Positions 8,277 through 41,411 of a stretch of 64,000 bases of DNA are shown here, in pieces. Location: positions 122,648-186,647 of the forward strand of contig CALIMM010000015.1 in the NCBI GenBank assembly GCA_938045445.1, read 5' to 3'. The position numbers were made by a program, and so were the translations under genes. The notes beneath the pieces are model-generated. The model had not been told where the DNA came from, made no database searches, and saw nothing but the letters and a program-made list of their open reading frames with translations. How positions within the stretch are numbered: the stretch's first letter is position 1; each line of letters opens with the position of its first letter. The stretch comes from an uncultured Candidatus Saccharibacteria bacterium. GTDB lineage: Bacteria > Patescibacteriota > Saccharimonadia > Saccharimonadales > Saccharimonadaceae.

Positions 8277-9017
8277 ATGACGAAACCATTTGTACTACTG
8301 CAGTCGCGCCCTGAGGATGAGGCGTCGGATAACGAATATCAGGCATTTTTGCACTTTGGTGGCCTTGCACCGGGTGACCTTGAGCGAGTGCGTATCGAGG
8401 CAGGGCAGCGCCCCACGCAGCCGCTCAGCGCCTACAGTGGTGTGCTGATGGGTGGTGGCCCAGCCAACTTTGCCTACCGGCCAGAGGAGAAATCAGCCGA
8501 GCAGCGCCGGTTCGAAGCCGTGATGATGCCACTCCTGCGCGAGATTATTACCCATGATATGCCATTTCTTGGCGCTTGCCTAGGCGTTGGCGCACTGGTC
8601 TCGGCACTGGGTGGTACGCCCAGCTTTGCCTATGGCGAGGCAATTGGTGCTGTGCCCATCACTCTCACGCCAGCGGCTAGGGACGACCCACTCCTCGCTG
8701 ACTTGTCCACTACCTTCGACGGCTTCGTTGGGCACAAAGAAGGGGTGCTCGAGCCACCAGCTGCCTGCACCGTCTTAGCACGCTCGCGTACCTGTGTGCA
8801 GATGCTGCGCGTGGGGCGCAACGTGTATGCCACGCAGTTCCATCCCGAGCTCGACCCCGAGAGCCTTGCTTTGCGCATCGACATCTACCGCCACGCTGGC
8901 TACTGTGCTCCGGACGAAGCTGATACCCTCATTGCCAACGCCCGCCAGCAAACCGTCACCGAACCAGTCAAGATCCTGCGCCGGTTTGTGCAGCGGTATC
9001 GGCAGGAAGAGCTCTAG
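8277..9017 (+). CDS. Class I glutamine amidotransferase-like protein
   Basis: FLGACLGVGAL carries the nucleophile Cys. ATQFHPELD carries the His/Glu region typical of GATase1/GuaA-like domains. SD AAGGAG lies before the ATG. Confidence 0.85.
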   Translation: MTKPFVLLQSRPEDEASDNEYQAFLHFGGLAPGDLERVRIEAGQRPTQPLSAYSGVLMGGGPANFAYRPEEKSAEQRRFEAVMMPLLREIITHDMPFLGACLGVGALVSALGGTPSFAYGEAIGAVPITLTPAARDDPLLADLSTTFDGFVGHKEGVLEPPAACTVLARSRTCVQMLRVGRNVYATQFHPELDPESLALRIDIYRHAGYCAPDEADTLIANARQQTVTEPVKILRRFVQRYRQEEL

Positions 9018-9298
9018 GCTCGATCTTACTCATCTTCCGCTTGCATATACTTTTACCAAGCTATGAATGGCCGACGTATTCGTTATATTGACCGCTAAGA
9101 GTTGGAGGAAAGTTAGCTTATGTGGCGCACTTATTATTTACCAAATGAGATGGTAGGGAATAGGCTCGCATAGGCAAAAATGGTTTTGATGTAAGGACGC
9201 GTACTATTTGTCTACTTCTTGTGCAAAAACATACCCCCTCCCCCATATAGGCAGTAGGCCATAGCATATATCTCTATGCGATACTGGCAGTGAAATGT

Positions 9299-9336
9299 AA
9301 GAAGCTCGGTATTTATATACGGGCTTCTTTGCTTTT
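9299..9336 (+). terminator. Rho-independent terminator with no annotated gene directly upstream
   Basis: AAGAAGCTCG (9299-9308) pairs with CGGGCTTCTT (9320-9329), including one T-G wobble that exists only on the plus strand. TGCTTTT follows. It lies about 280 nt downstream of the amidotransferase stop. Confidence 0.55.
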
Positions 9337-9456
9337 GGCAGTGGCTAAAGAATCGCTACTCGCGGAGTGATCAAACTACCGTGCTCGGCTACTATTGATT
9401 GGCAACAGGATCTTCGCATAGATACCCTGCCACCCACTGATAGGGTAGGGGTATCC

Positions 9457-9831
9457 CTATGCATCAGCGTGACACACTGCCTCAATGTTATGCCCGTTTG
9501 GGTCGATGAGGAAGGCACCATAATAGTCTGGATGATAGATCGCTCGCACGCCTGGTGCGCCATTGTCCTGTGCTCCTGCTGCTAGGCCAGCTGCATAGAA
9601 TGCATCAACTGCTGCCCGCGACGGTGCAGCAAAAGCAAAGTGTAGTGGCGATGATGGCTCGCCTTGCCCAAGCCAAAATATCCTGGTGTGTTGCGTCCGG
9701 TCTGGATTACTAAAGCCTACGCCATATGATTCGTCAATTGTCTTGGCATACCCCAGTGGTGCCAATACCGCTTCATAAAAGGCCTTGCTTGCTTCAATGT
9801 CTTGAACGATGATGCCGAAGTGGTCGATCAT
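9457..9831 (-). CDS. VOC (glyoxalase/bleomycin-resistance/dioxygenase) family protein
   Basis: From ATG 9831 the protein reads MIDHFGIIVQDIEASKAFYEAVLAPLGY...YYGAFLIDPNGHNIEAV. SD GGAGG is at 9838-9842 on the minus strand. Confidence 0.85.
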   Translation of the reverse strand: MIDHFGIIVQDIEASKAFYEAVLAPLGYAKTIDESYGVGFSNPDRTQHTRIFWLGQGEPSSPLHFAFAAPSRAAVDAFYAAGLAAGAQDNGAPGVRAIYHPDYYGAFLIDPNGHNIEAVCHADA

Positions 9832-9905
9832 GAGGTACCTCCTTGTGATATATCGATTAGTGTATTGCCTCTTAAGTATACGCCACAAATGATGACAACA
9901 GTGTG

Positions 9906-10043
9906 TCAGTATTGAATATTTTTTTGTGTCTTTTGAATCACCCTGCGCTTCGACACCTCAAAGCGATCTGCTAACTCCTGAGCAGTGGCTTTGTCTCGCT
10001 CGCAGAGGAGAGATAGAATGGCGAGTAGACGCTGGAGTTTCAT
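9906..10043 (-). pseudogene. 45-codon remnant of a YafY/DeoR-type HTH regulator (N-terminal wHTH only)
   Basis: My own translation gives MKLQRLLAILSLLCERDKATAQELADRFEVSKRRVIQKTQKNIQY*. The first ~37 aa look like the HTH_11-type N-terminus of YafY-family regulators. The WYL/effector part is missing. The ORF is below the ORF-track cut-off. Confidence 0.45.
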
Positions 10044-10612
10044 AATAACCTTACCAGATAATTCGTATAGCAATTATATACCACTATTGTAGCAACGTAT
10101 GGCTCATCATGACAAAGAAAGATGTTTGTGAGAACAGATTATAAATAGGCTAATGGTATATAGATAGTAGGGGTATAGGTATTATTGCAGGATATACAGT
10201 CCCGTGTGCTGCGTGGCTGCCTGGTAAGATAGCGGCATCTCGGTATGTAGATACGTGTTGCGAGGCTTATGAGATGGTTGCTTTGCGTGATGGGGGTGCT
10301 ACCTTATTTTTTACTTCCTAGCATCACCCCCCGGCGAAAGACATAGTGGATTTAGATAGAATATATAGCAGTGTAAAAGCGAAAAATAACCACCTAACAG
10401 TGGTCTAGTGTCGGTAAAAAATCTCCACGACTTTTCCACATGACCCTAGACACTAGATATGGGCACGCTATATATAGTGTGGGTGAGACGAAACTCTTGA
10501 TACTAACAGAGGTAATAATATACAAAACTTGCACAATACTGTATTTAACGAGCACCCTGCGCACCATATGGTATAATTACCTCGATAACCCCATAAACAA
10601 GGAGATAAGCAG

Positions 10613-10990
10613 ATGAGTAATTTTCCGGTAGTGCGCGTCGAGCGTGTTGATGTGCGGAATGAGAGCGCGTCGAAGATAGATGTATGGGCACGCATCAAGA
10701 ATGAGTCCGACCGGCAGGTGAAGGTTGTGAGCTGGGAGTATCTGGGGAATATGCGCAACGAGTCGCACACGCTCAACCCGGGGAACACAGTTGATGTGAT
10801 GCTCTATAGCGGTGCACCCAAGAATTATCCAGACCAAATGTACATTCGCTACGAAGCCGAGCATGATGGTGGCAGGCATTACTTCTTGGCGCGGCACCAG
10901 GCGAAATTTGACGAGCGCTATAACAATGACACGAAATGGTATCGGCCATCAGATTGGATGGAGTTCCAGCGCGTGGACCGCGGTAACTAG
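10613..10990 (+). CDS. Hypothetical small beta-rich protein (125 aa)
   Basis: SD AAGGAG precedes ATG 10613. The stop TAG (10988-10990) is 1 nt from the rnhA ATG. Confidence 0.7.
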   Translation: MSNFPVVRVERVDVRNESASKIDVWARIKNESDRQVKVVSWEYLGNMRNESHTLNPGNTVDVMLYSGAPKNYPDQMYIRYEAEHDGGRHYFLARHQAKFDERYNNDTKWYRPSDWMEFQRVDRGN

Positions 10991-10991
10991 C

Positions 10992-11432
10992 ATGGCAGCC
11001 GCTCCACGCATTTTCTACACCGATGGCAGCGCCAGCCCCAACCCTGGCCCGGGCGGCTATGCCGTCATCGAGCAGGGCAAGCCCGTAGCGCTGGGCAGTG
11101 AGCCAGGCAACACGACGAACATCCGCATGGAGGGGATGGCCCTCATCACAGCCATGCAGTTAGCTGGGGCTGAGAAATGCGAGATTCATACCGATAGCGA
11201 ATTTTGGGTTAATGTCCTCACCAAGTGGGCACCTGGCTGGGCAGCCAAGGGCTGGCGCAAGAGCAGCGGGCCCATCAAGAATCTCGAGCTCGTGCAAGAA
11301 GCCTATGCGCTTTATACCACCGTGCAGCCAAAGCTCATCTGGGTGCGCGGCCACAACGGCCATGAGCAAAATGAGCTCGCCGACCAATGGGCCAACCGAG
11401 CACGAGCCGGGGAGCGGCTAGAGGAAGAATGA
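10992..11432 (+). CDS. rnhA: Ribonuclease HI
   Basis: From ATG 10992 the protein reads MAAAPRIFYTDGSASPNPGPGGYAV...NIRMEGMALI...IHTDSEFWVN...VRGHNGHEQNELADQWA. These are the DEDD catalytic residues in canonical RNase H context. Confidence 0.9.
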   Translation: MAAAPRIFYTDGSASPNPGPGGYAVIEQGKPVALGSEPGNTTNIRMEGMALITAMQLAGAEKCEIHTDSEFWVNVLTKWAPGWAAKGWRKSSGPIKNLELVQEAYALYTTVQPKLIWVRGHNGHEQNELADQWANRARAGERLEEE

Positions 11433-12982: not shown

Positions 12983-13723
12983 CTAAACTGTGCTATGAGT
13001 AGTATCGTGCTGCTCGTAGCTCTTGTACACTGCATCGAGGTGAGGAGAGAGTGTCTCGCGCACGTTATGTCGTAGTGTCTCGTAGCCAGATGGGTCGCGC
13101 AGCGCATCGCTTATTTCATACTGGGCAAGGAGGGCAGACTGATCTGGCATAACACAGTCCACGACTTGCGCCAGTGCAGCTGTGTCGAATGGGTTGATTA
13201 GTACGGATGAGTCTTGCTCGCTATTACGCTCGTTTATCATATGTTGCAAGTCTCGCACTGCGCTGGTGACAGGCTGGTATTGCTCACCGATGAGCTTGCG
13301 CAGCTGCTGTGTCTTCCGGTGGGCGCGCCAATGAGCAAATGGGCTATAATGCCCATGGTCGGCCAACATAGCTCGGCCGTAAACAGCAGCAGGAGTGCCA
13401 ATCAGTGATGTGGCAGACCCAATCGTAAAACCTGTTGTCAGCTCTTGCATTGGTGTACCGTCAAATCCATACGCGTAGGTTGCCGCAGCCATTGCACATG
13501 CACCGAGCGTAGCAATGCTTAGACCAGCCTCTGCATATTCTTCAGGCAGCGTCACATCTCGTTCGCCAAACTGTGGTGGCACTTTGTGATTGCGACTGCG
13601 GATGTAGGCGATGGCAACGTCTGGATCGACAGCATCGAGCATAGATTGTGAGCAATCGGCCCACACATGTACTCCGTCATTTATATCTTTGGGGGCGTAG
13701 TTGTATCGAGATAGCAGTGCCAT
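12983..13723 (-). CDS. Hypothetical protein (246 aa)
   Basis: Clean ORF with SD GAGGAGAG upstream. It has a central Gly/Ala/Thr-rich hydrophobic stretch and no motif I recognise. Confidence 0.65.
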   Translation of the reverse strand: MALLSRYNYAPKDINDGVHVWADCSQSMLDAVDPDVAIAYIRSRNHKVPPQFGERDVTLPEEYAEAGLSIATLGACAMAAATYAYGFDGTPMQELTTGFTIGSATSLIGTPAAVYGRAMLADHGHYSPFAHWRAHRKTQQLRKLIGEQYQPVTSAVRDLQHMINERNSEQDSSVLINPFDTAALAQVVDCVMPDQSALLAQYEISDALRDPSGYETLRHNVRETLSPHLDAVYKSYEQHDTTHSTV

Positions 13724-13906: not shown

Positions 13907-15439
13907 ATGGATCAGACACTTGCACAGGAGATTTTGCGTAGTGGTCAAAGTGCGCTGCTGACAGGGCCAGCGGGCACGGGCAAGACGTATGTGCTGGGGC
14001 AGTTCATCCGCCAGTGTAAGGCGGATGGCAAGTATGTGTCCGTCACCGCCACGACGGGGCTTGCGGCGACGCACCTGGGTGGTAGCACCATCCATGCATG
14101 GGCGGGGATTGGCATTCATGATAGCTTGCCGAACAATTTTTTTGATCACCTGTCGAAGACGCGGCGCGATATTATTGCCAAGACAGATGTGCTCATCATC
14201 GATGAGATTAGTATGTTGCACGACTACCGCCTGGATATGATCGACGAAGTGTGCCGCCGGGTGCGCGAGATGCCGAATCAGCCTTTTGGCGGATTGCAGG
14301 TGGTAATGAGTGGGGACTTCTTCCAGTTGCCACCGGTTAATCGCGATGGTGGGCGGCAGGGGAGCTTTGTGGTGCAGTCGCAAGCTTGGCGACAGCTCGA
14401 CCCAGCTATTCTGTATCTCGACCAGCAATACCGCCAGCAAAAGGGCGACGCTCTGCTAGATATCCTAACGGCTATGCGAGCTGGTGACCTGCGCCGACGC
14501 CATGCCGAGCAACTACTAGCTCGCACAGAGGTAGAGCCACCTCACGAGAGCGACCTAACCGAGCTTCATACCGTCAATATCGACGTTGATCGGATCAACC
14601 AAGCCCGCCTCGCTGAGCTGCCTGGCGACGAAGTATCGTACCAGCGCAGCAGCACTGGTGGGCAAAATTATGTCGACACCTTGCAGCGGAGCATCCTCGC
14701 GCCGGAGGTGCTGGTGCTCAAGCGGGGTGCGCTGGTGATGGCCATCAAGAACGACCAAGCGCGGCGCTTTGCTAATGGGAGCATTGGCCAGGTAACAGAC
14801 TTCGAGCCAGGCACAGACTACCCCGTGGTGGAGTTTCGTAATGGCCATGTGGTGACGATGCAGCCTGACACCTGGGAGCTGCGCGATGGTACGCGCAAGC
14901 GGGCCAGCATCTCGCAGTTGCCGCTGCGCCTGGCTTGGGCGATTACTGTGCACAAGAGCCAGGGGATGACGCTCGATAGCGCACGCATCGACCTACGCAA
15001 AGCCTTTGTCCCGGGCATGGGCTACGTGGCACTGAGCGGCGTTAAGGGCCTCGACAATATATATCTCACTGGTATCAATCGGATGGCACTTACCATGAGC
15101 GATGAAGCCTATATCATCGACACGCAGCTGCGCACTCGTGCCGCCCAAGATGCCGAGCGCTTTGCCCATCTGCGCGAACAGGCTGCTCAGCGTGCTACGA
15201 TGCCACAGAAGAAGCCGACGGGCAAAACTGGCAGCACTAGCTGGGCGGCCAAGATCGCCACAATGCGCCAGACTCACCCCAACGCCTACAAACCATGGAC
15301 AAAGGCCGATGATGAGACACTCAAGCAAGGCTTTGTCCAAGGCGTGAGTATCCGCCAGCTCAGTCGCGAGCTCGGCCGGCACGAAGGCTCGATAAAAATG
15401 CGATTGCAAAAGCATTTTGGTGAGGATGCGGTGCAGTAG
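13907..15439 (+). CDS. PIF1/RecD-like SF1 helicase with C-terminal HTH
   Basis: Walker A is LLTGPAGTGKTY, Walker B is VLIIDEISML, and the PIF1-signature-like region is GGLQVVMSGDFFQLPPV. The C-terminus KPWTKADDETLKQGFVQGVSIRQLSRELGR is Myb/HTH-like. TATACT (13894-13899) lies 7 nt before ATG 13907. Confidence 0.85.
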   Translation: MDQTLAQEILRSGQSALLTGPAGTGKTYVLGQFIRQCKADGKYVSVTATTGLAATHLGGSTIHAWAGIGIHDSLPNNFFDHLSKTRRDIIAKTDVLIIDEISMLHDYRLDMIDEVCRRVREMPNQPFGGLQVVMSGDFFQLPPVNRDGGRQGSFVVQSQAWRQLDPAILYLDQQYRQQKGDALLDILTAMRAGDLRRRHAEQLLARTEVEPPHESDLTELHTVNIDVDRINQARLAELPGDEVSYQRSSTGGQNYVDTLQRSILAPEVLVLKRGALVMAIKNDQARRFANGSIGQVTDFEPGTDYPVVEFRNGHVVTMQPDTWELRDGTRKRASISQLPLRLAWAITVHKSQGMTLDSARIDLRKAFVPGMGYVALSGVKGLDNIYLTGINRMALTMSDEAYIIDTQLRTRAAQDAERFAHLREQAAQRATMPQKKPTGKTGSTSWAAKIATMRQTHPNAYKPWTKADDETLKQGFVQGVSIRQLSRELGRHEGSIKMRLQKHFGEDAVQ

Positions 15440-15631
15440 TGCATCGTTATCCCAAAGCCTTGGCTCGTCTCATATTTTTCGCAAAATATAGCAAACAAAA
15501 ATGAATATTATTCTAGTATATTCAGCTCCTACACAAGAGCTGCGAACTTTCCAGTAGCTCCCGTAAGTTGCTAATTGACAAACCTCCTCGATATCTCTTA
15601 CAATAAGTAACCTAGACAATAAGGAGAAAAT

Positions 15632-16453
15632 ATGGCAAATCCAGAGAGAGAGAGAGCCTTAACAGGTAGCGCTGAGCGCCGAAGTATAAAAGACTCCATA
15701 ATCATCCAATCATTGGGCCAGTTGTCGACCCATCGTGTAATCACGCTAGAAAATACATCACCAAGTACAGCCAGTATCATAAAACAACCAACAGGCACTG
15801 CCTCCGTCCGGCAGAATAGTATTTTCCTTAGCGCTCGAGAAAAGATGAAAGACAGCTTCATTATGTTGGGGTATGTAAAGGAATCTCAAGCGACCATGCG
15901 GCTTAATTCACATGATATTGCCTATGTAGAGATGAACTCGTCTGGAAGGGTATCTCTTGAAAAAAACGAGACGGGTGTGATAGCGACAAGCGGGTTGGCA
16001 GGCTGCACTGGTGTGGCTGGTTTTGCAAAAAGTCGAGATGGGAAAATTCAATCGTTTGTTTCGCATTATGATGCTCTGAGTCAGAATAGCCGCATAACAG
16101 GAAAAGATAGTCCGGTTAATCGGGATCTCTATACTTTTCGCTACCAAGTAGAAAAAGACGACACCCAAAGTACGCCATTGTATGTTGTTTCATATCCTGC
16201 ATCGAGTTGCTATGATCAGGATTATGGTAAGCGACGGGGAGTGTTTCGAGAATGGCATTATATGGACCAGATCAATACTACAATAGCGCAGCTGGGCAAA
16301 AACGCACAAGTCCTCCTCTTGCCATATGAGCTTAACTCGCAAGGTCACTCTCTTGCGAGTGGCCGTATTGATGGCAAAGAAGGGATATTTTGGGATGGTG
16401 TCTATATTGATTTTGCTGACTATATTGGCGATACGGCAGCTAACAAACAGTAA
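15632..16453 (+). CDS. Hypothetical soluble protein with a candidate Cys-His active site (L-A-G-C ... S-H-Y-D)
   Basis: SD AAGGAG (15621-15626). 273 aa with no hydrophobic helices. IATSGLAGCTGVAGFAKSRDGKIQSFVSHYD is reminiscent of CheD/CNF1/BLF1-type deamidase Cys/His spacing, a weak similarity recalled from memory. The gene is visibly AT-richer than its flanks. Confidence 0.65.
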   Translation: MANPERERALTGSAERRSIKDSIIIQSLGQLSTHRVITLENTSPSTASIIKQPTGTASVRQNSIFLSAREKMKDSFIMLGYVKESQATMRLNSHDIAYVEMNSSGRVSLEKNETGVIATSGLAGCTGVAGFAKSRDGKIQSFVSHYDALSQNSRITGKDSPVNRDLYTFRYQVEKDDTQSTPLYVVSYPASSCYDQDYGKRRGVFREWHYMDQINTTIAQLGKNAQVLLLPYELNSQGHSLASGRIDGKEGIFWDGVYIDFADYIGDTAANKQ

Positions 16454-16494
16454 CAAGTTTAGTTATAAAGGTATAGTTGTAGTAGAATAGCTAC

Positions 16495-17610
16495 ATGCAT
16501 AACCAACCAAACACACAAACCCCCACTACCGATACCACCTCAGTAACGCCACCAGAGCTAGCTGCCACGCCGCAGAGTGATGCAGACGTGGCCGCCCATG
16601 CCGAGGCTCAGCCAACAGATACTACCGCACAGTCTACGGCTGACACATCTACCGACGCTACCGACATCTTCCTCTGGGCTAACCAAGCCGATCGCGACAA
16701 AGACCAGCTGGAGGTGGATCTCTTCCTCTTTACCAAGGGCTATACGGTGTATGCTACCAACTATGCGGCCGAGCTCAAGGCACAGCTCAAGGTGCTCTTC
16801 CTCTACGATATGATCACGGCGGTGCAGACAGGTGCAGCGACTGGCCTGATGGTGCGCGACTTCGAGGCGGCCAAGGCTGAGGAAAATGTCCTTGAGCGCA
16901 CCACGCTCGACCGGGTAGTGCATGCTCAGGAAGTCATCGAGCAGATCACCTATAGCGAGGCAGACCTCGAGACCTTCAACGAGGGTGACCATGAATTCAA
17001 GAAGGTTAAGGGTATCATTGCGCGCTTCCGGATGGGCACAGATGGTGAGCCATTCTTCGTGGCCAAGCTGCTGCCCCAGTCGCAGGTGCTCAAGGGGGCA
17101 ACCGCCTGGATGTACAGCGGTGGGTCGTTCCAGCCATTTGTGGCTGATGCGGGGCTGCGCATTACGCCAGATAATCAGGTGTTGATCGTCGGCAACGATA
17201 TTTTTGCCTTTAGCGAGAGCAAATTCGTCCGGCTCTTTGGCTACGATGCCAAGAAGCACGCTGTGGCGGAGGAGAAGATCGCTGCCATCACGCAGCAGTT
17301 CAAACTTACCTTGCCTGAGGGGCTCACGCTCGACCGCCTAGTGCGCGATACGCCAGCGCTGGTGACTAAACTGCAAAAGCTCGACCCCGCCCAGGTGACA
17401 CAAGACCAACTGATCGACCACGCCGACGAAATGGGCCTGGGCCTGATGACGGACGACGCGGCAGGGAGCATCATTATCATGGATGCCAAGGATGCAGCCG
17501 TTTTTGTCAATCTCCTCAACGACGACTACGTCACGAGCGACCTGACCGGCGTCAAATACGAAATGCGCGGCAAGAAGATCTTGCGCGAGAACGAGCAATT
17601 GCCGGAGTAG
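16495..17610 (+). CDS. DUF4868/KwaB-like protein with a low-complexity N-terminus
   Basis: 371 aa. The N-terminal 60 aa are T/A/D/Q-rich. The C-terminal part (...QVLIVGNDIFAFSESKFVRLFGYD ... AAVFVNLLNDDYVTSDLTGVKYE...) resembles the DUF4868 family as I remember it. TAGAAT (16483-16488) lies 6 nt before the ATG. The CDS is confident; the family call is moderate. Confidence 0.6.
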   Translation: MHNQPNTQTPTTDTTSVTPPELAATPQSDADVAAHAEAQPTDTTAQSTADTSTDATDIFLWANQADRDKDQLEVDLFLFTKGYTVYATNYAAELKAQLKVLFLYDMITAVQTGAATGLMVRDFEAAKAEENVLERTTLDRVVHAQEVIEQITYSEADLETFNEGDHEFKKVKGIIARFRMGTDGEPFFVAKLLPQSQVLKGATAWMYSGGSFQPFVADAGLRITPDNQVLIVGNDIFAFSESKFVRLFGYDAKKHAVAEEKIAAITQQFKLTLPEGLTLDRLVRDTPALVTKLQKLDPAQVTQDQLIDHADEMGLGLMTDDAAGSIIIMDAKDAAVFVNLLNDDYVTSDLTGVKYEMRGKKILRENEQLPE

Positions 17611-17966: not shown

Positions 17967-19511
17967 ATGGCTAAGCAACAATCTACGGTGCAATTTCCAA
18001 AACATTTCCTCTGGGGCGCTGCCACGAGCGCGCATCAGGTCGAGGGTGGTATGCACAACCAGTGGTCGGAGTGGGAAAAAGCTCAGGCCAAGACCCTCGC
18101 TGCTCAGAGCCAATATCAATATGGCGACTTGCCCAACTGGCCGCACATAGCTAGTGCCGCCAAAGATCCAAACAATTATATCTCGGGCAAAGCTGCCAAC
18201 CACGCCGAGCTCTACGCCCAAGACTTCGCCCTGGCCAAGAAGATGGGCCTGACCTCGTGGCGCTTTAGTGTGGAGTGGTCGCGCATCGAGCCAGAAGAGG
18301 GCGCGTGGAATGCTGAGGCGATCAAATATTACAAGGCGTACTTGGCCGCGCTGGCCGATGCTGGGCTAGAGCCAGTTATAACACTGTTTCACTTCACACT
18401 GCCGGTGTGGTTTGCTGCCCGTGGGGGCTTTGCGAAGCGCGATAATGTGAAGTATTTCGTGCGCTTCGCTGATAAACTGATGGATGAGATTGGCGCCACG
18501 GTGCGCTATGTCATTACCATTAACGAACCCTGCGTCTACGTGACCGAGAGTTACTACAATGGCACTTGGCCACCCAACGTCCGCAGCAAGTGGCAAACCT
18601 ACCGCGTGCTGAGCAACCTTGCCTATGCACACAACCAAGTAGCCAAAGTCCTCCATGCCAAGAGCCGGCGCTTCAAGGTGGCGGTGGCCAAGAATTCGGC
18701 CTATACCTACCCGGGCGACGACGCCTGGCTCAGCCGAGCAACGGCGCGGGTGGTGCAGTTCTTCCAGGATGATTATTTCCTACGCAAGGTGGTGCGGCAG
18801 AGTGATTACATCGCCGTCAATTATTACTTTAGCAATCGCATCTATGGCTACCGCATCCACAACCCCGAGACCACGCCAAATGATCTCGGCTGGACAATGC
18901 AGCCCGACCATCTCGAGCTTGTGCTGGAGCGTCTCTGGGGCCGCTACAAGCTGCCGCTGCTCGTGACAGAGAACGGTGTGGCCGACGAGCGTGACCAGTT
19001 CCGCAAGCAATGGCTCACTCAGTCTATCCTTGCTATGCAGCGCGCCCTTGGCAGTGGGGTAGAGCTGCTGGGGTATATGCACTGGAGCTTCCTCGATAAC
19101 TTTGAGTGGGACAAAGGGTTTTGGCCGCGTTTTGGCCTCTTTGCGGTCGACTACAAGACGTATAAGCGGACACCACGCCCGAGTGCAGTGTGGTTTGCTC
19201 GCGTATTGCAACAGCAGAAGAAACAGGCAGAGCAGCCCATTGAGCCATTGCCGTCTGTACCAGCGCGCAAGAAGCCGAGTACTAAGCCAGCTACTGCACA
19301 GGCGCAAGCTACATCATCATCGCCGCGCTCTACTCGCTCTACGCCAGCAGTGCCACCCAAACCGACGCCGCCAACGCCACCCCAAACACCCCAAATGCCA
19401 CCATCTACACCAGGGCCAGCGGCACGCTCTAGCGGGGTGATTGCACCGCCGCGCCGACCAGCAGTCGCATCACGCAGTCGTTCACGTAGTCATAATAATC
19501 GGGAGGAATAA
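17967..19511 (+). CDS. GH1 beta-glucosidase with a ~100-aa Pro/Thr/Ser/Ala-rich C-terminal tail
   Basis: FLWGAATSAHQVEGG is the N-terminal GH1 signature. TINEP carries the acid/base Glu and VTENG the nucleophile Glu. The tail reads ...PPKPTPPTPPQTPQMPPSTPGPAARS.... TACAAT lies 7 nt upstream. Confidence 0.9.
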   Translation: MAKQQSTVQFPKHFLWGAATSAHQVEGGMHNQWSEWEKAQAKTLAAQSQYQYGDLPNWPHIASAAKDPNNYISGKAANHAELYAQDFALAKKMGLTSWRFSVEWSRIEPEEGAWNAEAIKYYKAYLAALADAGLEPVITLFHFTLPVWFAARGGFAKRDNVKYFVRFADKLMDEIGATVRYVITINEPCVYVTESYYNGTWPPNVRSKWQTYRVLSNLAYAHNQVAKVLHAKSRRFKVAVAKNSAYTYPGDDAWLSRATARVVQFFQDDYFLRKVVRQSDYIAVNYYFSNRIYGYRIHNPETTPNDLGWTMQPDHLELVLERLWGRYKLPLLVTENGVADERDQFRKQWLTQSILAMQRALGSGVELLGYMHWSFLDNFEWDKGFWPRFGLFAVDYKTYKRTPRPSAVWFARVLQQQKKQAEQPIEPLPSVPARKKPSTKPATAQAQATSSSPRSTRSTPAVPPKPTPPTPPQTPQMPPSTPGPAARSSGVIAPPRRPAVASRSRSRSHNNREE

Positions 19512-19514
19512 TAT

Positions 19515-20513
19515 ATGGCACAGAGCAATGGTGGAGCACGTGTCGTCGTCATCGGCGGCGGGACGGGGAGCTTTACGCTCCTGACAGGCCTGAGGCAGTA
19601 TGCCTCGCAGGTCACAGCGCTCGTCAATATGGCAGATGATGGCGGCTCGACGGGCCAACTGCGCGATGAGCTCGGCGTCTTGCCGCCTGGTGATGTGCGG
19701 CAGTGCCTGGTGGCGCTGAGCAATAGTCCCAAGGTGCGCGACCTCTTTAATTATCGCTTCGATGAAGGGAGTTTTAAGGGGCATGCCTTTGGTAATCTCT
19801 TCCTCACAGCCCTTGAGAAAATGACCGGCAGCTTTGCCGAGGCGGTGGCACTAGCCAGTCAGGTGCTTAATATCGATGGGTGCGTTGTGCCCGCAACACT
19901 CAGCAATGTGACGCTTTGCGCAGAAGGCGAGGATGGTCAGCCTATCAAGGGAGAGTATGTCATCTCGCAGCAGGCACTAGCGCGTCGGCCCAAGATTTGG
20001 CTCGAGCCAGAAGCCCAGGCTAACCCCGCCGCGGTGGAGGCAATTCGCACCGCCGATATGGTCGTCGTGGCTCCCGGCAACCTCTATGGCAGCTTGGCAC
20101 CTGTCTTGGTCATTCGCGAGATCCAAGAGGCACTTGCCGCCACCAAGGCGCGCTGTGTCTTTGTCTGCAACCTCGTCACCAAGCCCGGCCCAACAGACGG
20201 CTTTTCGGTGAGTGACTTCGCGAGTGAGATCGAGCGCCTAGCGGGTAGTCAGTTCCTCGACTATGTCGTCTTTAACAACACGCGCCCCAGCCCCGAGCTG
20301 ATGGATAAGTACGCCCACGATGGCGAGCTGATGGTCGAGTACGATATGGACGAGATGCACCGCCAGCACTACCGCTACCGCGCCGCACCAGTCCTCGCAC
20401 AAGACGTGTGGGATGGTGCCCAGGCTAGCGATCCATTGGCTAGCACGCGCAGCTTCATCCGGCACGACCCCGATGTTGTGGCGCGCCAGCTGATGCGGAT
20501 ATACTTTGCATAA
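19515..20513 (+). CDS. YvcK/CofD-family (UPF0052, gluconeogenesis-factor-like) protein
   Basis: VVVIGGGTGSFTLLTGLR...VNMADDGGSTGQLRDELGVLPPGDVRQCLVAL is the canonical family N-terminus. SD GGGAGGAA. Confidence 0.9.
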   Translation: MAQSNGGARVVVIGGGTGSFTLLTGLRQYASQVTALVNMADDGGSTGQLRDELGVLPPGDVRQCLVALSNSPKVRDLFNYRFDEGSFKGHAFGNLFLTALEKMTGSFAEAVALASQVLNIDGCVVPATLSNVTLCAEGEDGQPIKGEYVISQQALARRPKIWLEPEAQANPAAVEAIRTADMVVVAPGNLYGSLAPVLVIREIQEALAATKARCVFVCNLVTKPGPTDGFSVSDFASEIERLAGSQFLDYVVFNNTRPSPELMDKYAHDGELMVEYDMDEMHRQHYRYRAAPVLAQDVWDGAQASDPLASTRSFIRHDPDVVARQLMRIYFA

Positions 20514-22095: not shown

Positions 22096-22524
22096 ATGCC
22101 GCAACAGCCAATTCCAGCCCAGTCTCAACCACAGCCACCCCAGCAAGCACAGCCACGACAGCCCACAACATCACCCGCCTTGGCTCGTCAGTACGCATCC
22201 CTAGGTACGGTGCTTGGTGTAGGTGGTGTGTGCAGTGGCATTATTAGCATTCTCATGCTAATTGCGAGTACTACTTCAGATGAATCTACTAATATGAATC
22301 GTGCTGCTTTTTCTGCTGCCGTTGTTGCCAGTATTGCTGGTATTGTCCTTGGCATCAACTCTTACGATAAGCTACGCGAAGCAGGCGCATCGCGTGCGTG
22401 GGGTATAGCAAGTATTGTGTGCAGCGCTGTCGTGGTTGGGTGGATTGTGCTATGGCTTTTATTCCTTATTGCAATGATAGCCCTTTTTCTTGTTAAGTTC
22501 TTGATCGATTCTCTGCAGAAGTAG
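22096..22524 (+). CDS. Membrane protein with a P/Q-rich N-terminus
   Basis: MPQQPIPAQSQPQPPQQAQPRQP... is followed by three or four hydrophobic helices. Confidence 0.65.
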   Translation: MPQQPIPAQSQPQPPQQAQPRQPTTSPALARQYASLGTVLGVGGVCSGIISILMLIASTTSDESTNMNRAAFSAAVVASIAGIVLGINSYDKLREAGASRAWGIASIVCSAVVVGWIVLWLLFLIAMIALFLVKFLIDSLQK

Positions 22525-31537: not shown

Positions 31538-32464
31538 ATGGGCTTTCGCACAAAACAAACACCACCACCCGCGCGCCGCCGAGCTGCCAAAAACAAGAGG
31601 GAAGAGCAGCCCCAGCGCACCGCCTACACCTACCGGCGTAACCGGACGCTGACCGGTAGCTTGGTGAGCCGTGTGCCGAGTGCGAGCGAGCCCAAGGCGC
31701 AGCTGCGGTCGCCGCGTATGCATGCGCATGATTTGCGCCGGACGCGCCGCCGCGTGGTATTGTCGCTTGGAGTAGTGATGGGGCTGCTGGCTGCAGTGTG
31801 GTTTGCGCTTGATAACGTCATTGCGACACCAGTTGTTGCAGGCAATCTCACCAGCAACCATCAGCTCTACCAAGCCAAGATCAACGACTATCTCACTGCC
31901 CATCCGCTGGAGCGTTTTCGCTTTGCACTCAATACTAGTCGGCTGGCGGCCTATCTCCAGACGCATGATTGCCCCGAGGTGGCCGCAGTGCTTCCAGCCA
32001 CGCAGCAAGCTGGCTTGGGGCGTAGCACCATCACCCTCGCTATGCGCCAGGCAGCAGTGGTCTGGACGGTTAATCGCCAGCAGCTCTTTGTCGATACCGA
32101 GGGCCACGCCTTCCGCCGCGCTTATGGGTCACGGCCAAGCATTGAAGTAGTGGACGACAGTGGTATCGGCACGCGCAATAACCAAGTCGTCGCGAGCAAC
32201 CAATTCCTCGGTTTTATCGGTAAAGTCGTCGGCGCAGTCCGCCGCCACCAGCTCACCGTCCAAAAGATCACGCTGCCTGCTGGCACGACGCGTCAAATCT
32301 ACGTTTGGTTTACAGGGGTGGAGTATCCTGTTAAGTTCTCGGTCGATCGCTCGGCTGGCTTGCAGAGCGAGGACGCCGCCCGGGCCATCCGCTACCTGGC
32401 GCAGCACCACATCACCCCCAAATACCTCGACGTCCGCGTCAGTGGCCGAGCAGCGTATCGGTAA
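31538..32464 (+). CDS. ftsQ: FtsQ/DivIB-like division protein
   Basis: It has a basic N-terminus, one TM helix (VVLSLGVVMGLLAAVWFAL), then a POTRA/FtsQ-like ectodomain, and its position in the dcw cluster fits. The start is uncertain: TATAAT (31519-31524) precedes ATG 31538, and the track's start at 31370 would overlap the divergent promoter. Confidence 0.7.
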   Translation: MGFRTKQTPPPARRRAAKNKREEQPQRTAYTYRRNRTLTGSLVSRVPSASEPKAQLRSPRMHAHDLRRTRRRVVLSLGVVMGLLAAVWFALDNVIATPVVAGNLTSNHQLYQAKINDYLTAHPLERFRFALNTSRLAAYLQTHDCPEVAAVLPATQQAGLGRSTITLAMRQAAVVWTVNRQQLFVDTEGHAFRRAYGSRPSIEVVDDSGIGTRNNQVVASNQFLGFIGKVVGAVRRHQLTVQKITLPAGTTRQIYVWFTGVEYPVKFSVDRSAGLQSEDAARAIRYLAQHHITPKYLDVRVSGRAAYR

Positions 32465-32538
32465 TGGGGAACTTGTTAATAACAAAGGTATTAGCGCTTG
32501 TAAAGTACAGGACCAACAAGGAAACTGGTCTATAGTAT

Positions 32539-32562
32539 GGATATTGAGATATCCGCTTTTTC
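32539..32562 (+). terminator. Weak AT-rich terminator after ftsQ
   Basis: GGATAT (32539-32544), loop TGAG, ATATCC (32549-32554), then GCTTTTT. Confidence 0.4.
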
Positions 32563-32707
32563 TATAGCGTCTTCACCGTCATTGATGGGACGAGATCGAT
32601 TGTCATGAGTAACGACCAGAGGATGATTAGTTTTGACGTAAGAGTCCGACATCCTGATATTCACGAGAGGTATTAAGCTATAAACCTTTCTGAGAATGGA
32701 GCGGCAT

Positions 32708-32788
32708 AAGAGAAATTACTGAGGTTATGAAGCATCGGTTTCGTCGCTAACTGCAGCGCATCCAGCAAAGGGTAGGGGAGCTCTGTAA
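32708..32788. repeat. Copy C (with internal insertion) of the ~60-nt intergenic repeat
   Basis: AAGAGAAATTACTGAGG ... CCAGCAAAGGGTAGGGGAGCTCTGTA corresponds to the ends of copies A and B. Confidence 0.4.
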
Positions 32789-34388
32789 AACAAGAACAAA
32801 TTTACAACACTTTACATAACAAAGCATAAAAAATGCAAATAATATATTTATACTACAAAATCGACAAAATGCAAAAAAGAGTAGGGGAGATGTTTTTTGC
32901 GAAAAAGTCAAATCATGATATTGTATAGATTTTTAATCTCGGTCAACTCAAGCAGGGTAGAAAACATAGCAAAAATACCAAGCAAACAAAATGTCAAACA
33001 ACGCAACCATGGCTCAGAATCTGTGGGGCTCAGGTTAGTATTAGTATTGGTATGACGTCAGGCAAACACGAGACCGGAATACGTATGTCTAGTTCTGCGG
33101 CCAAGCTCATTTGTTCGATATCGAGCCACTGCACAGACAAGTTACAAACCTTGCGCAGCAAACAAACACATTCACACGAACAAACGTACATAACTTTGCA
33201 CGCATGAATGTTCATGAACATATACACAGTGTGTTCCCTCCAATAGAACAAGCGTCTGCTTTTACTTTTGCAGGACGTATAAGTGCCCGCAGCTCTATCC
33301 TTACTCTCCCCATTGGATGGCGCGGATATCTTAAGTGAACCTGCTGAACAAGAAGCAAGATCGATCAATAATCGAAGATCTATATACCGGATATATACGT
33401 TTTATGCTCATGAAGCCCATAACCGCCAAACCCAGCTCAATTCGGGCCGCATCTGGGGTCAGATCTATATATGCATCGTAAAAGGATTATTGTGCGAAGT
33501 TATATTACACTCCTAAAGATGATCAATGATACATCCTTTGCGTCTACCCTACTGCTGCGTGGATGTGAATTATTGTGTACGCGTTGATTGCGATACATGG
33601 CGACTCATCATTCCCTTGTCTATGGGCGCTGATGTTTATGCTTATGCTTATGCTTTGCTGCTAGCTGCTACTTTTGCTGTGCATGGTTGCTTGCTATATT
33701 GTGTAGTATAGTTAATCAGCGCGGTAAGATTGTGAGCTTTCTGGGTATATTTCTATGCGGCTTTAGGTTGTTATTGATTGCTAGCTTAATAGCTTTCATC
33801 TAAGCCGAAACCTATATGCTGTGTGCTGCTGCCAGGACAAGTATGACTCTCTGACTGGCCTAAGAGATATAGGCAGAGAGATGGCCTGACGGTGAGCAGA
33901 GAGCTACAGCTCAGGTGAGGTATGTCACGAGAACACAGCTCTCGAATATGAGCTTATCAGTGGTAGGTGTTAGTGAAATGAGGCAGAAACAGGGGTAGGG
34001 CGGTTGCCGGGGATTTTTTGGCGAAAGGGTGGCAGACTCCCCTGCCTTGCCCTGCCCTTTTTGTTTGCTTTTGCTGTGTACTTGAGATGCTCTCTGCAAA
34101 AGGAATAGATGCAAGAGGTATATATGAGCAAATTGTAGCTGCGATGGAATTATCTTGCATACAAACGGTCGATACATAAGCCTATGAGTGCAAAATCACA
34201 CGCGAATATCCGCAGCCATCATGTGTATACGATATTTGTCCAGGCGGCAAATTACCTCTGTTATAGCTGAGTATATGTAGTGTTCGGGGCGGGAGGGGAA
34301 GGCCACTTCCCTATCGTTATTTCTCTCAACCTGTAGACTCGAGCTCTCACTTATTTTCAGGCTGTTTATGATCCACCAAAATAAAGAC

Positions 34389-40995: not shown

Positions 40996-41013
40996 AATTT
41001 GTGCTGAAAAGTG

Positions 41014-41042
41014 TTGACATTTTGTCAAGCGGGTGCTAGTAT
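41014..41042 (+). promoter_or_regulatory. Near-consensus sigma-70 promoter TTGACA - 17 nt - TAGTAT with no ORF behind it
   Basis: The -35 is at 41014-41019 and the -10 at 41037-41042. It is divergent from dprA. Confidence 0.5.
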
Positions 41043-41048
41043 CATAAG

Positions 41049-41328: not shown

Positions 41329-41411
41329 TTGGGGTGAGTTGGTGATGGTCTACTCTTGCAGGGGCTATTTTTTAAGCTGATATACTTTGGCATGCATAGA
41401 GGAGTTATGAA

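What the first reader, a model, noticed from the sequence alone, without database searches (positions are those of the whole stretch)
15632..17610. KwaB/DUF4868-like gene partnered by a soluble Cys-His protein instead of KwaA: candidate non-canonical defence pair beside a PIF1-like helicase
The 371-aa product of 16495-17610 looks like the DUF4868/KwaB family over its C-terminal ~250 aa. The supporting stretches are ...QVLIVGNDIFAFSESKFVRLFGYD... and a near-C-terminal ...FVNLLNDDYVTSDLTGVKYE.... In the described Kiwa system, KwaB works with KwaA, a multi-pass membrane protein encoded directly upstream. Here the upstream same-strand neighbour is different. It lies at 15632-16453, 41 nt away, has no hydrophobic helix, is visibly AT-richer than its surroundings, and contains SGLAGC followed 19 residues later by SHYD. 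That Cys...His spacing and L-x-G-C context are reminiscent of CheD/CNF1/BLF1-type glutamine deamidases. A PIF1/RecD-like helicase (13907-15439) sits immediately upstream on the same strand. The KwaB-like gene also has its own leaderless-type -10 (TAGAAT, 16483-16488), so the two genes may be separately transcribed. A sensor-like KwaB homologue combined with a toxin-like enzymatic partner would be an undescribed architecture.
Basis: partly seen in the sequence, partly recalled or inferred. Interest (0 to 1): 0.8.

Follow-up and report, generated by a model that had tools for sequence, protein, structure and literature searches.

The report
Phase-variable deamidase cassette beside orphan KwaB
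The two genes are real but are not a defence pair: a conserved Saccharibacteria KwaB-like gene that normally sits next to a PIF1 helicase has, in this strain, a swappable, repeat-switched cassette encoding a likely protein deamidase inserted just upstream of it.

Summary
Every sequence-level observation holds. 16495-17610 encodes a full-length KwaB/DUF4868 homologue (Pfam 43 bits, cut-off 26.3; Foldseek hits only KwaB structures). 15632-16453 encodes a soluble, AT-rich protein. Its model has the CNF1/CheD/NTAN1 cysteine-hydrolase fold and a near-invariant Thr119-Cys125-His145 triad. A PIF1 helicase lies upstream.

The proposed defence pair is not supported.
- The KwaB-like gene is a conserved syntenic gene of Saccharibacteria (75-80 % identity). 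PIF1 is upstream in 76 of 76 informative species genomes, often under 100 bp away. It has its own conserved -10 element, and no KwaA is present.
- The Cys-His gene is one of at least six alternative cargos in that slot in sister genomes with 95 % or more identical flanks.
- It has three-fold lower synonymous divergence than its flanks, and 41-57 % homologues elsewhere never neighbour KwaB.

Unexpectedly, the cassette is driven by a near-consensus promoter, a ribosome-binding site and an ATG followed by an (AG)n tract. The tract is 8-20 nt long across strains and puts the ATG in or out of frame. The same leader also drives an unrelated AAA_5/DUF7192 cargo. I read this as a phase-variable expression site, ON in this window. 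The enzyme's activity and target are unknown.

The parts
13907..15439 (+). PIF1/RecD-like SF1B helicase with a C-terminal HTH-like tail; conserved upstream neighbour of the KwaB-like gene
   Evidence: Pfam PIF1 E=2.3e-37, Pif1_2B E=2e-5. PHROG Dda-like helicase E=2.4e-61. Found upstream of the KwaB-like gene in 76 of 80 loci; the other 4 lack upstream sequence.
15440..16479 (.). Strain-variable low-GC cassette slot between the two conserved genes. The left homology break is at 15438, 15506 or 15677 depending on the sister genome; the right break is always at 16480.
   Evidence: blastn against sister genomes. GC 37-45 % against 57-58 % in the flanks. At least 6 slot states within the clade whose flanks are 95 % or more identical.
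15575..15604 (+). Near-consensus sigma-70-type promoter (TTGACA, 18 nt spacer, TACAAT) in the leader shared by different cargos
   Evidence: 11 of 12 matches. It lies in the segment 15440-15677 shared with the AAA_5 cassettes.
15621..15626 (+). Shine-Dalgarno AAGGAG, 5 nt before the ATG
   Evidence: Read directly from the sequence; identical in 42 sister alleles.
15632..16453 (+). 273-aa soluble protein with a CNF1/CheD/NTAN1-like cysteine-hydrolase fold (putative protein Gln/Asn deamidase), a remote XopAK/HopK1-C relative. The first ~40 residues are a disordered leader absent from distant homologues.
   Evidence: AlphaFold pLDDT 81.6, pTM 0.80. Foldseek NTAN1 6e-5, CheD 1e-4. NCBIfam XopAK hit in 21 of 25 members. 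Family alignments.
15643..15656 (+). (AG)7 simple-sequence repeat after codon 4. Tract length decides whether the ATG is in frame with the enzyme domain; it is ON here.
   Evidence: It is the only such tract in 64 kb, with 0 expected. It is 8-20 nt long in 29 alleles: in frame at 8, 14 and 20 nt, out of frame at 10, 12, 16 and 18 nt. The same tract and rule apply in the AAA_5 cassettes.
15986..16066 (+). Codons of the putative catalytic triad: Thr119 (15986-15988), Cys125 (16004-16006), His145 (16064-16066)
   Evidence: Invariant in 25 family members and 90 % or more conserved in 38 distant members. The spacing matches CheD T21/C27/H44 and NTAN1 S69/C75/H92.
16483..16488 (+). -10-like TAGAAT, 6 nt before the KwaB-like ATG; part of the conserved flank (candidate leaderless promoter)
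   Evidence: A position-conserved TAGTA[CGA]A[CA]T is seen in divergent Saccharibacteria.
16495..17610 (+). Orphan KwaB/DUF4868 homologue, full-length (Rossmann-like N-domain plus DUF4868), with a 55-aa low-complexity N-terminal extension
   Evidence: Pfam, PADLOC and NCBIfam hits. Foldseek matches only KwaB structures. 75-80 % identity across Saccharibacteria.
17967..20513 (+). GH1 glycosidase and CofD/YvcK genes: the conserved downstream synteny that anchors the KwaB-like gene in the core block leading to mraZ/dcw
   Evidence: Pfam hits; synteny.

Best explanation
The window comes from a Nanosynbacter-like oral Saccharibacterium. Two unrelated things are juxtaposed here.

(1) A lineage-conserved gene pair, PIF1-type helicase followed by an orphan KwaB/DUF4868 homologue. 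It sits in a syntenic block that runs on to GH1, CofD/YvcK and the mraZ/dcw cluster. The KwaB-like gene has no KwaA partner and carries its own conserved -10 element a few nucleotides before its ATG. By inference from E. coli KwaB, it is most likely a DNA-binding protein acting without a membrane sensor, possibly together with the helicase.

(2) A strain-variable expression site inserted between these two genes in this clade. It consists of a near-consensus promoter, a Shine-Dalgarno sequence, an ATG, four codons and an (AG)n tract, followed by exchangeable cargo. Slipped-strand changes of the tract by 2 nt move the ATG in or out of frame with the cargo (inferred phase variation; n=7 here, so ON). 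In this genome the cargo is a soluble enzyme of about 230 aa with the CNF1/CheD/NTAN1 cysteine-hydrolase fold and a Thr119-Cys125-His145 triad. By inference it hydrolyses a side-chain amide (Gln or Asn deamidation) on a protein substrate.

No cognate immunity gene is conserved next to it, its distribution is patchy and recently exchanged, and its only sequence relatives with a name are XopAK/HopK1-C type III effectors. I therefore favour a target outside the bacterium's own essential machinery, for example in the actinobacterial host cell.

Shown: the gene identities, fold and triad conservation, non-conservation of the pairing, cassette boundaries, and tract-length polymorphism with its frame consequences. 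Inferred: enzyme activity, target, real-time switching, and the function of the KwaB-like and PIF1 genes.
For: KwaB identity.

No KwaA: the neighbours and all 6 multi-TM ORFs of the window have no KwaA hit, nor do slot genes in other genomes.

Conserved synteny:
- PIF1 is upstream in 76 of 80 loci; the other 4 have under 1.1 kb of upstream sequence.
- In 24 loci the gap is about 100 bp or less.
- CofD, and mostly GH1, lie downstream.
- The same order is seen in cultured Southlakia, SEML1_0264-0267.

Cassette nature:
- Six slot states in the clade with 95 % or more identical flanks.
- Sharp homology breaks at 15438, 15506 or 15677 on the left and at 16480 on the right.
- GC3 40.5 % against 67-71 %.
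- dS 0.082 against 0.25-0.29 in the flanks, and dN/dS 0.32 against 0.05.

Divergent homologues lie in unrelated contexts (L109).

Fold and triad: with the literature triads. Remote XopAK link.

Switch:
- The tract is unique in the window.
- Lengths of 8-20 nt correlate perfectly with frame in 29 Cys-His alleles (apart from one allele with a second frameshift and one with a decayed tract).
- The same holds in 13 AAA_5 alleles.
- Promoter with 11 of 12 matches.
Against: - Foldseek TM-scores are modest (0.3-0.5). No sequence profile reaches CheD, NTAN1 or CNF1.
- I could not access model coordinates, so the 3-D proximity of T119, C125 and H145 was not measured.
- Phase variation is inferred from differences between assemblies (MAG consensus sequences), not from heterogeneity within a population. 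OFF alleles keep an open frame over the whole conserved domain from internal TTG/GTG codons, so they may be leaky.
- No secretion signal is recognisable, so a host-directed role is speculative.
- There is no terminator between the cargo and the KwaB-like gene. Read-through could therefore couple their expression in this clade.
- Every sister genome of the clade has some cargo in the slot, which leaves room for a looser functional link.
Confidence: 0.7

Rival explanations
1. One reading: the KwaB-like protein (sensor or DNA binder) and the Cys-His enzyme (toxin or effector) form a two-gene non-canonical Kiwa-like defence system, with the deamidase replacing KwaA.
For: The genes are adjacent and co-directional, 41 nt apart, with no terminator between them. 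Both protein assignments are correct. The arrangement is kept in 15 species-level genomes of one clade.
Against: - Sister genomes with 95 % or more identical KwaB carry unrelated cargo in the same slot. 24 other species have no cargo at all.
- Homologues at 41-57 % identity never neighbour KwaB.
- Synonymous divergence is discordant.
- The KwaB-like gene has its own conserved promoter element, which lies outside the cassette.
- The Cys-His gene is frame-shifted OFF in about half of the alleles while KwaB stays intact.
- No PADLOC model matches the Cys-His protein.
Confidence: 0.06
2. The real functional unit is PIF1 helicase plus the KwaB-like protein: a KwaA-independent, lineage-fixed Kiwa-like module. 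It could be anti-phage or anti-plasmid, or it could handle incoming DNA in these naturally competent bacteria. The cassette is only an incidental insertion. This complements the best explanation rather than excluding it.
For: - PIF1 is upstream in all 76 loci with enough upstream sequence, in 24 of them about 100 bp or less away and co-directional.
- E. coli KwaB binds DNA, stalls replication forks and interplays with RecBCD.
- Both genes are dispensable in Southlakia Tn-seq, NE at all three passages, as expected for a conditional function.
Against: - Gene order is generally very stable in these reduced genomes. The whole block from RNase H to dcw is syntenic, so adjacency alone is weak evidence.
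- Insertions of up to 4 kb between the two genes are tolerated.
- The KwaB-like gene has its own promoter element.
- Its 75-80 % identity across the order and dN/dS of 0.05 look unlike a typical fast-evolving defence gene.
Confidence: 0.35
3. The slot is a phase-variable defence hotspot. The alternative cargos (Cys-His deamidase, AAA_5+DUF7192, the 282-299-aa protein) are stand-alone anti-phage effectors switched ON and OFF to limit autoimmunity, independently of KwaB.
For: - Hypervariable content lies between conserved genes, with low GC and recent exchange.
- SSR switching is known for restriction-modification and other defence genes (background knowledge; reviews listed).
- The AAA_5 and DUF7192 cargos are phage-like (phrog_249 at 1.5e-47, phrog_1909 at 4e-38).
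Against: - No cargo matches any of the 5027 PADLOC models beyond noise.
- In other clades the slot holds an ABC transporter or an FHA-PP2C phosphatase.
- The Cys-His protein has no recognisable sensor domain.
- There are no relatives on IMG/VR viral contigs.
Confidence: 0.15
4. The Cys-His ORF is a decaying remnant with no current function.
For: About half of the alleles have the ATG out of frame. One allele carries a second frameshift (L013) and one has a degenerate tract (L103). dN/dS is six-fold higher than in the flanks.
Against: - dN/dS of 0.32 still indicates purifying selection.
- The triad is intact in all 28 aligned alleles.
- Frame changes map to the repeat tract rather than to random positions.
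- The strong promoter and Shine-Dalgarno sequence are conserved.
- The family is conserved at 41-57 % identity in other Saccharibacteria.
Confidence: 0.04

Closest known systems
Kiwa defence system (KwaA + KwaB; E. coli O55:H7; PDB 9mrx, 9mtn, 9nyu)
   Same: The 371-aa protein is a full-length KwaB homologue, with the Rossmann-like N-domain and the DUF4868 DNA-binding domain.
   Different: - No KwaA anywhere in 64 kb.
- The score is far below the NCBIfam KwaB equivalog cut-off, 51 against 200 bits.
- It is a conserved syntenic gene of a whole order, not a sporadic island gene.
- Its constant neighbour is a PIF1 helicase.
- It has an extra 55-aa low-complexity N-terminus.
CNF1/YfiH-like cysteine hydrolases: CheD (2F9Z), NTAN1 (6A0E), CNF1/CNFy, BLF1
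   Same: These are the best structural matches. The Ser/Thr-6, Cys, His+17-20 arrangement on neighbouring beta-strands is shared, and the residues are near-invariant.
   Different: - No sequence-profile match to any of them.
- TM-scores are only 0.3-0.5.
- There is an extra C-terminal alpha/beta region of about 100 aa with its own conserved motifs (PY, GIFWDG).
- There is no chemotaxis context (no CheC or MCPs) and no toxin delivery domain.
XopAK / HopK1 C-terminal domain (Xanthomonas and Pseudomonas type III effectors; NCBIfam NF041406)
   Same: It is the only named family detected by sequence. 21 of 25 close and 15 of 38 broader family members hit it over the Thr-Cys-His core, best E=4.5e-7. 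XopAK is itself predicted to carry a deaminase/deamidase-type catalytic domain (PMC11116571).
   Different: - The score of 24 bits is far below the 150-bit family cut-off.
- Saccharibacteria have no T3SS.
- The host would be a bacterium, not a plant.
- XopAK's enzymology is itself untested.
SSR-driven contingency loci (Haemophilus, Neisseria, Campylobacter, Mycoplasma)
   Same: A short tandem repeat in the 5' coding region whose unit number sets the reading frame. Alleles differ almost only in repeat number.
   Different: - Here one switch leader serves interchangeable, unrelated cargos.
- The organism is an ultrasmall epibiont of the candidate phyla radiation. The searchable literature holds no report of SSR phase variation in it.
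- Switching within a population has not been shown.

Membership tests
Kiwa defence system | KwaB protein with a DUF4868 domain | tested here: met
   Pfam PF16162 43 bits against a 26.3 cut-off. PADLOC KwaB E=1.9e-12, near full length. Foldseek matches only KwaB structures, E=3e-9.
Kiwa defence system | KwaA, a four-helix membrane protein encoded next to KwaB | tested here: not met
   The upstream neighbour is soluble. There is no KwaA PADLOC hit for the neighbours, for all multi-TM ORFs in the window, or for slot genes in other genomes.
Kiwa defence system | Equivalog-level similarity to characterised KwaB (NCBIfam NF041623 cut-off) | tested here: not met
   51.3 bits against a cut-off of 200. 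phmmer against PDB KwaB gives only E=0.08.
Kiwa defence system | Protection against phage or plasmid | not testable with these tools
   The only indirect datum is that the Southlakia orthologue SEML1_0265 is non-essential in phage-free co-culture.
CNF1/YfiH-like cysteine hydrolase superfamily (CheD, NTAN1, CNF1, BLF1) | Alpha-beta-beta sandwich fold | tested here: met
   Model pLDDT 81.6. Foldseek probability 1.00 to NTAN1 (E=6e-5) and CheD (E=1e-4, TM 0.52 on CheD length), followed by CNF1, CNFy and YfiH. Giant-virus CheD-like proteins appear in BFVD. TM-scores are modest.
CNF1/YfiH-like cysteine hydrolase superfamily (CheD, NTAN1, CNF1, BLF1) | Conserved Cys nucleophile, His base and orienting Ser/Thr | tested here: met
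   T119, C125 and H145 are invariant in 25 members and 90 % or more conserved in 38 members. The spacing of -6/+20 compares with -6/+17 in CheD and NTAN1. Spatial proximity in the model could not be measured.
CNF1/YfiH-like cysteine hydrolase superfamily (CheD, NTAN1, CNF1, BLF1) | Amidohydrolase (deamidase) activity on a protein substrate | not testable with these tools
   Needs biochemistry.
CheD family (Pfam CheD) | Profile match above threshold | tested here: not met
   No CheD hit at E<=1 for any of the 25 members.
XopAK family T3SS effectors (NF041406) | Score above the family cut-off of 150 bits | tested here: not met
   24.3 bits, E=1.8e-5, core region only. It is a reproducible remote match in 21 of 25 members.
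SSR phase-variable (contingency) locus | Simple-sequence repeat within the 5' coding region or promoter | tested here: met
   (AG)7 at 15643-15656, codons 5-9; 0 expected by chance.
SSR phase-variable (contingency) locus | Repeat-number polymorphism that switches the reading frame between otherwise near-identical alleles | tested here: met
   Tract lengths of 8-20 nt. ON at 8, 14 and 20 nt; OFF at 10, 12, 16 and 18 nt, across 29 Cys-His and 13 AAA_5 alleles.
SSR phase-variable (contingency) locus | Reversible switching within a clonal population | not testable with these tools
   Needs read-level data or culture.
PIF1/RecD-like SF1B helicase | PIF1 helicase domain above threshold | tested here: met
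   PF05970 at 129 bits against a 25.9 cut-off, and the 2B domain at 24.6 against 23.9.

The most novel reading that the evidence does not exclude
Oral Saccharibacteria possess a phase-variable, cassette-swapping expression site. In this strain it switches ON a XopAK-like Cys-His deamidase that acts as an effector on the actinobacterial host cell. This would be the first contingency locus and the first enzymatic host-directed effector candidate in the candidate phyla radiation. It sits beside a lineage-fixed, KwaA-independent PIF1-KwaB module.
Probability: 0.25. Interest if true: 0.7.

Novelty: new variant of a known kind. Interest (0 to 1): 0.5.

Why it matters
The result matters in three ways.

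- **Annotation.** A DUF4868/KwaB hit in Saccharibacteria is a conserved syntenic gene, always next to a PIF1 helicase and without KwaA. It should not be scored as a Kiwa system or as evidence of a defence island. Because the orthologue is non-essential in the genetically tractable Southlakia, the role of a KwaA-less KwaB is directly testable.

- **Phase variation.** The repeat-switched leader with exchangeable cargo suggests that these ultrasmall epibionts use contingency-locus bet-hedging. That would give a genetic handle on cell-to-cell heterogeneity in how they treat their host bacteria.

- **A new enzyme family.** The cargo defines a small, uncharacterised family: 65 cluster representatives among 1.84 billion proteins. 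It has the CheD/CNF1/NTAN1 fold and links by sequence to the enzymatically unstudied XopAK/HopK1-C plant-pathogen effectors.

Tried and rejected
Searches on the Cys-His protein that found nothing useful:
- Pfam, PADLOC and PHROGs on the single protein, and Pfam on all 25 members.
- phmmer and profile hmmsearch against PDB sequences; only noise appeared (UvrB, SOD at E>1).
- IMG/VR viral contigs: no relatives.
- Cluster look-up of 10 distant members: no names except one hypothetical protein from Pandoraea sputorum.

Literature searches that found nothing:
- XopAK + deamidase.
- Saccharibacteria + DUF4868.
- Saccharibacteria + phase variation: no paper holds both.
- Kiwa + Patescibacteria.

Ideas considered and rejected:
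- KwaA hidden elsewhere in the window. All six multi-TM ORFs were scanned and none hit KwaA.
- A conserved immunity or partner gene next to the Cys-His homologues. Their neighbours differ in every locus.
- A phage origin for the Cys-His gene. There is no PHROG or IMG/VR match.
- Chance occurrence of the (AG)n tract.

Limitations:
- My first dN/dS script masked indels, so I rechecked ORF intactness separately.
- The KwaB-like model is only moderate (pLDDT 65) because the alignment is shallow in diversity. I use it only for fold assignment.
Full report

Yes. The three + strand ORFs exist as described.

The 371-aa product of 16495-17610 passes the Pfam KwaB (PF16162/DUF4868) gathering threshold: 43 bits against 26.3, E=6.5e-11, residues 170-351. 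It aligns almost end to end with a PADLOC KwaB model (E=1.9e-12, positions 15-318 of 320). It stays far below NCBI's KwaB equivalog cut-off, at 51 against 200 bits. An AlphaFold model of moderate quality (pLDDT 65) matches only KwaB structures in the PDB (9mrx, 9mtn, 9nyu) at E=3e-9 to 2e-7 over about 340 columns. The next hit is at E=2.

The upstream product of 15632-16453 has no hydrophobic segment. It is a sharp compositional island, with GC 44.6 % and GC3 40.5 % against 57-58 % and 67-71 % in both flanking genes. The helicase is a clear PIF1/RecD-like SF1B enzyme. TAGAAT at 16483-16488 is present.

**2. What is the Cys-His protein?**

No Pfam, PADLOC or PHROG family matches it, and no PDB sequence does.

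The family is small. The word-indexed search found 31 clusters. An exhaustive profile search of 1.84 billion representatives found only 65 at E<=1e-3. Where the source gives a name, nearly all are Saccharibacteria.

In 25 members, C125 and H145 are invariant within LAGCTGVAGFA...FVSHYD. In 38 members reaching down to about 20 % identity, V99, T119, C125, H145 and Y232 are the only nearly invariant positions.

A confident model (pLDDT 81.6, pTM 0.80) finds these as its best PDB matches:
- human NTAN1 (E=6e-5);
- Thermotoga CheD (E=1e-4, TM 0.52 on CheD's length);
- CNFy and CNF1 (about 1e-3);
- YfiH/PgeF.

[quoted passage not shown] The BFVD viral library returns giant-virus CheD-like proteins.

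The published triads are CheD Thr21/Cys27/His44 and NTAN1 Ser69/Cys75/His92 (PMC7022378). In both, the hydroxyl residue lies 6 before the Cys and the His 17 after it. Here Thr119/Cys125/His145 lie at -6 and +20, on consecutive beta-strands of the model.

The only named sequence relative is the XopAK type III effector family (NF041406). The score is far below its cut-off (24 against 150 bits). The match is nevertheless reproducible in 21 of 25 close and 15 of 38 broader members, and it covers exactly this core. XopAK and HopK1-C are themselves only predicted enzymes (PMC11116571).

Activity and substrate remain untested.

**3. Is it a partner of the KwaB-like gene?**

No.

(a) *From the Cys-His side.* Homologues at 41-57 % identity on long contigs lie in unrelated neighbourhoods, each different. 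They sit next to DUF5677, to unknown genes, to rRNA-methylase genes, or near IF3/L35/L20. None has a DUF4868 or PIF1 gene nearby (L109). No neighbour recurs that could be an immunity protein.

(b) *From the KwaB side.* The protein is 72-100 % identical across the 120 best clusters, which include complete Saccharibacteria genomes. In 80 species-representative loci:
- PIF1 lies upstream in 76, and the other four simply lack upstream sequence.
- CofD/YvcK, and usually GH1, lie downstream.
- The block continues to mraZ, rsmH, ftsL and a PBP gene.
- In 24 loci the tblastn match boundaries put PIF1 and the KwaB-like gene about 100 bp or less apart.
- The Cys-His gene is present in only 15 of the 80, all inside the window's own clade (KwaB 95 % or more identical).

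In that clade the slot occurs in at least six states:

| Slot state (PIF1-KwaB gap) | Cargo | Loci |
|---|---|---|
| ~1060 bp | Cys-His gene | 15 |
| ~1039 bp | unrelated 282-aa protein | 2 |
| ~1293 bp | 299-aa protein, a relative of the 282-aa one | 3 |
| ~2740 bp | AAA_5 ATPase + DUF7192 (phage CobS-like) | 2 |
| ~2937 bp | AAA_5 ATPase + DUF7192 (phage CobS-like) | 6 |
| ~3985 bp | AAA_5 ATPase + DUF7192 plus the 299-aa type | 5 |

Other clades carry an ABC transporter, an FHA-PP2C phosphatase or unknown genes in the slot. No cargo matches a PADLOC model.

(c) *Boundaries.* Homology with sister genomes always resumes at window 16480, 15 nt before the KwaB-like ATG. On the left it breaks at 15438, 15506 or 15677.

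(d) *Evolutionary tempo.* Among the same genomes the Cys-His gene has dS 0.082, against 0.25-0.29 for PIF1, the KwaB-like gene and GH1. Its dN/dS is 0.32 against about 0.05. The cassette is therefore younger than its flanks, or recently exchanged, and evolves under different constraint.

(e) *Promoter.* The KwaB-like gene keeps a position-conserved -10-like element, TAGTA[CGA]A[CA]T, 6-7 nt before its ATG in very divergent Saccharibacteria.

**4. An unexpected feature: a repeat-switched leader.**

The cassette has a near-consensus promoter (TTGACA, 18 nt, TACAAT; 15575-15604) and a Shine-Dalgarno sequence (AAGGAG). The ATG at 15632 is followed after four codons by (AG)7 at 15643-15656. That is the only such tract in 64 kb, with none expected by chance.

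Across 29 alleles (26 unique contigs) the flanking bases are nearly identical but the tract is 8, 10, 12, 14, 16, 18 or 20 nt long. The ATG is in frame with the enzyme domain at 8, 14 and 20 nt. That is 13 unique contigs, including this window. It is out of frame at 10, 12, 16 and 18 nt (11 unique contigs). Of the remaining two, one allele has a second frameshift and one has a degenerate tract.

The same leader, with the same tract and the same frame rule, heads the AAA_5 ATPase cargo in 13 sister genomes:
- ON at 14 nt, giving 594-597 aa, in three genomes.
- ON with an interrupted tract in one genome.
- OFF in nine genomes.

This explains why the window protein carries a disordered N-terminal extension of about 40 aa that distant homologues lack. 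The extension is the shared leader.

This is the sequence signature of SSR-mediated phase variation. Here the switch belongs to the site and the cargo is exchangeable. It is inferred from between-assembly variation, not yet from within-population data.

**5. What about the KwaB-like gene itself?**

There is no KwaA in the neighbourhood or anywhere in the window, so this is not a Kiwa system as defined.

In E. coli, KwaB binds DNA through DUF4868, stalls replication forks and is tethered and controlled by KwaA (bioRxiv 10.1101/2023.02.26.530102).

The Saccharibacterial protein behaves like a lineage-fixed gene rather than a sporadic defence gene:
- It is strongly conserved (dN/dS 0.05; 75-80 % identity across the order).
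- It is constantly next to a PIF1 helicase.
- In Southlakia epibionticum Tn-seq, the orthologue SEML1_0265 and the helicase SEML1_0264 are both non-essential at all passages in phage-free co-culture (PMC10633639 Table S1).

I consider a PIF1-KwaB DNA-transaction or defence module plausible (about 0.35). Adjacency in these highly syntenic genomes is weak evidence, however.

**6. Verdict.**

The proposed architecture, a KwaB sensor plus a deamidase toxin acting as a defence pair, is not supported.

What is there:
- an orphan, conserved KwaB homologue with its usual PIF1 neighbour;
- between them, a strain-variable, probably phase-variable expression site;
- in this genome, the site is ON and expresses a member of a small uncharacterised family with the CheD/CNF1/NTAN1 fold and remote XopAK similarity, a putative deamidase.

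Each element belongs to a known kind. The combination has not been described in the literature I could search: a swappable cargo behind one SSR switch in a CPR epibiont, beside a KwaA-less KwaB. I rate the interest as moderate.

Noticed in passing
window 15643-15656; sister loci L011-L045, L091-L103: An (AG)n tract after codon 4 of the cassette ORF varies from 8 to 20 nt between strains and sets the reading frame. The same leader drives unrelated cargo (AAA_5 ATPase) in sister genomes. It is a candidate phase-variable expression site.
   Followed up: yes
L012, L017, L020, L022, L024, L027, L030, L033, L034, L037, L038, L044, L045 (slot between PIF1 and the KwaB-like gene): The alternative cargo is an AAA_5 (MoxR/CobS-like, phrog_249) ATPase of 530-597 aa plus a DUF7192 protein (phrog_1909). 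This is a phage-like pair of unknown role. L023, L029 and L012 carry a 282-299-aa protein with no family.
   Followed up: partly
window 16480-16494 and the equivalent positions in L007-L010, L047-L090: The motif TAGTA[CGA]A[CA]T sits 6-7 nt upstream of the KwaB-like ATG across divergent Saccharibacteria. It is probably a leaderless-mRNA promoter signature and may be general in this phylum.
   Followed up: partly
window 16495-16660 and 19200-19511: In this clade the KwaB-like protein has a 55-aa T/A/Q/D-rich low-complexity N-terminal extension. The GH1 protein has a P/S/T/A-rich C-terminal tail of about 95 aa. Both are absent from orthologues in other Saccharibacteria (332 aa and 418-424 aa).
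   Followed up: no
window 22096-22524 (+): A 142-aa ORF with four TM-like segments and low GC3 (0.42) lies between the GalU-like gene and mraZ. It is not KwaA by PADLOC and has no equivalent gene call in L010. It may be another variable islet.
   Followed up: partly
window 56512-58575 (-): A 687-aa membrane protein whose residues 443-541 hit the PADLOC candidate-system model PDC-M43B (E=5e-8) and weakly hit CARF models.
   Followed up: no
window 12983-13723 (-): A 246-aa ORF between metK and the PIF1 gene has no family hit and intermediate GC3 (0.51). Other genomes have different genes at this position, so it may be a second variable slot.
   Followed up: no
window 9001-11000, 32001-35000, 41001-42000, 61001-62000: Further 1-3 kb stretches with GC 0.44-0.48 in a window that averages 0.55. 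They may be other acquired islets.
   Followed up: no
L064 (JBLMYW010000066.1): The contig is labelled as an Acidobacteriota MAG but carries the Saccharibacteria PIF1, KwaB-like, GH1 and CofD block at 72-76 % identity. This is probably a binning contaminant.
   Followed up: no
Southlakia epibionticum SEML1_0262-0267 (PMC10633639 Table S1): The same block (RNase H, hypothetical, PIF1-type helicase, DUF4868, GH1, YvcK) exists in a cultured, transformable Saccharibacterium. The helicase and DUF4868 genes are non-essential, so the KwaA-less KwaB can be studied genetically.
   Followed up: partly
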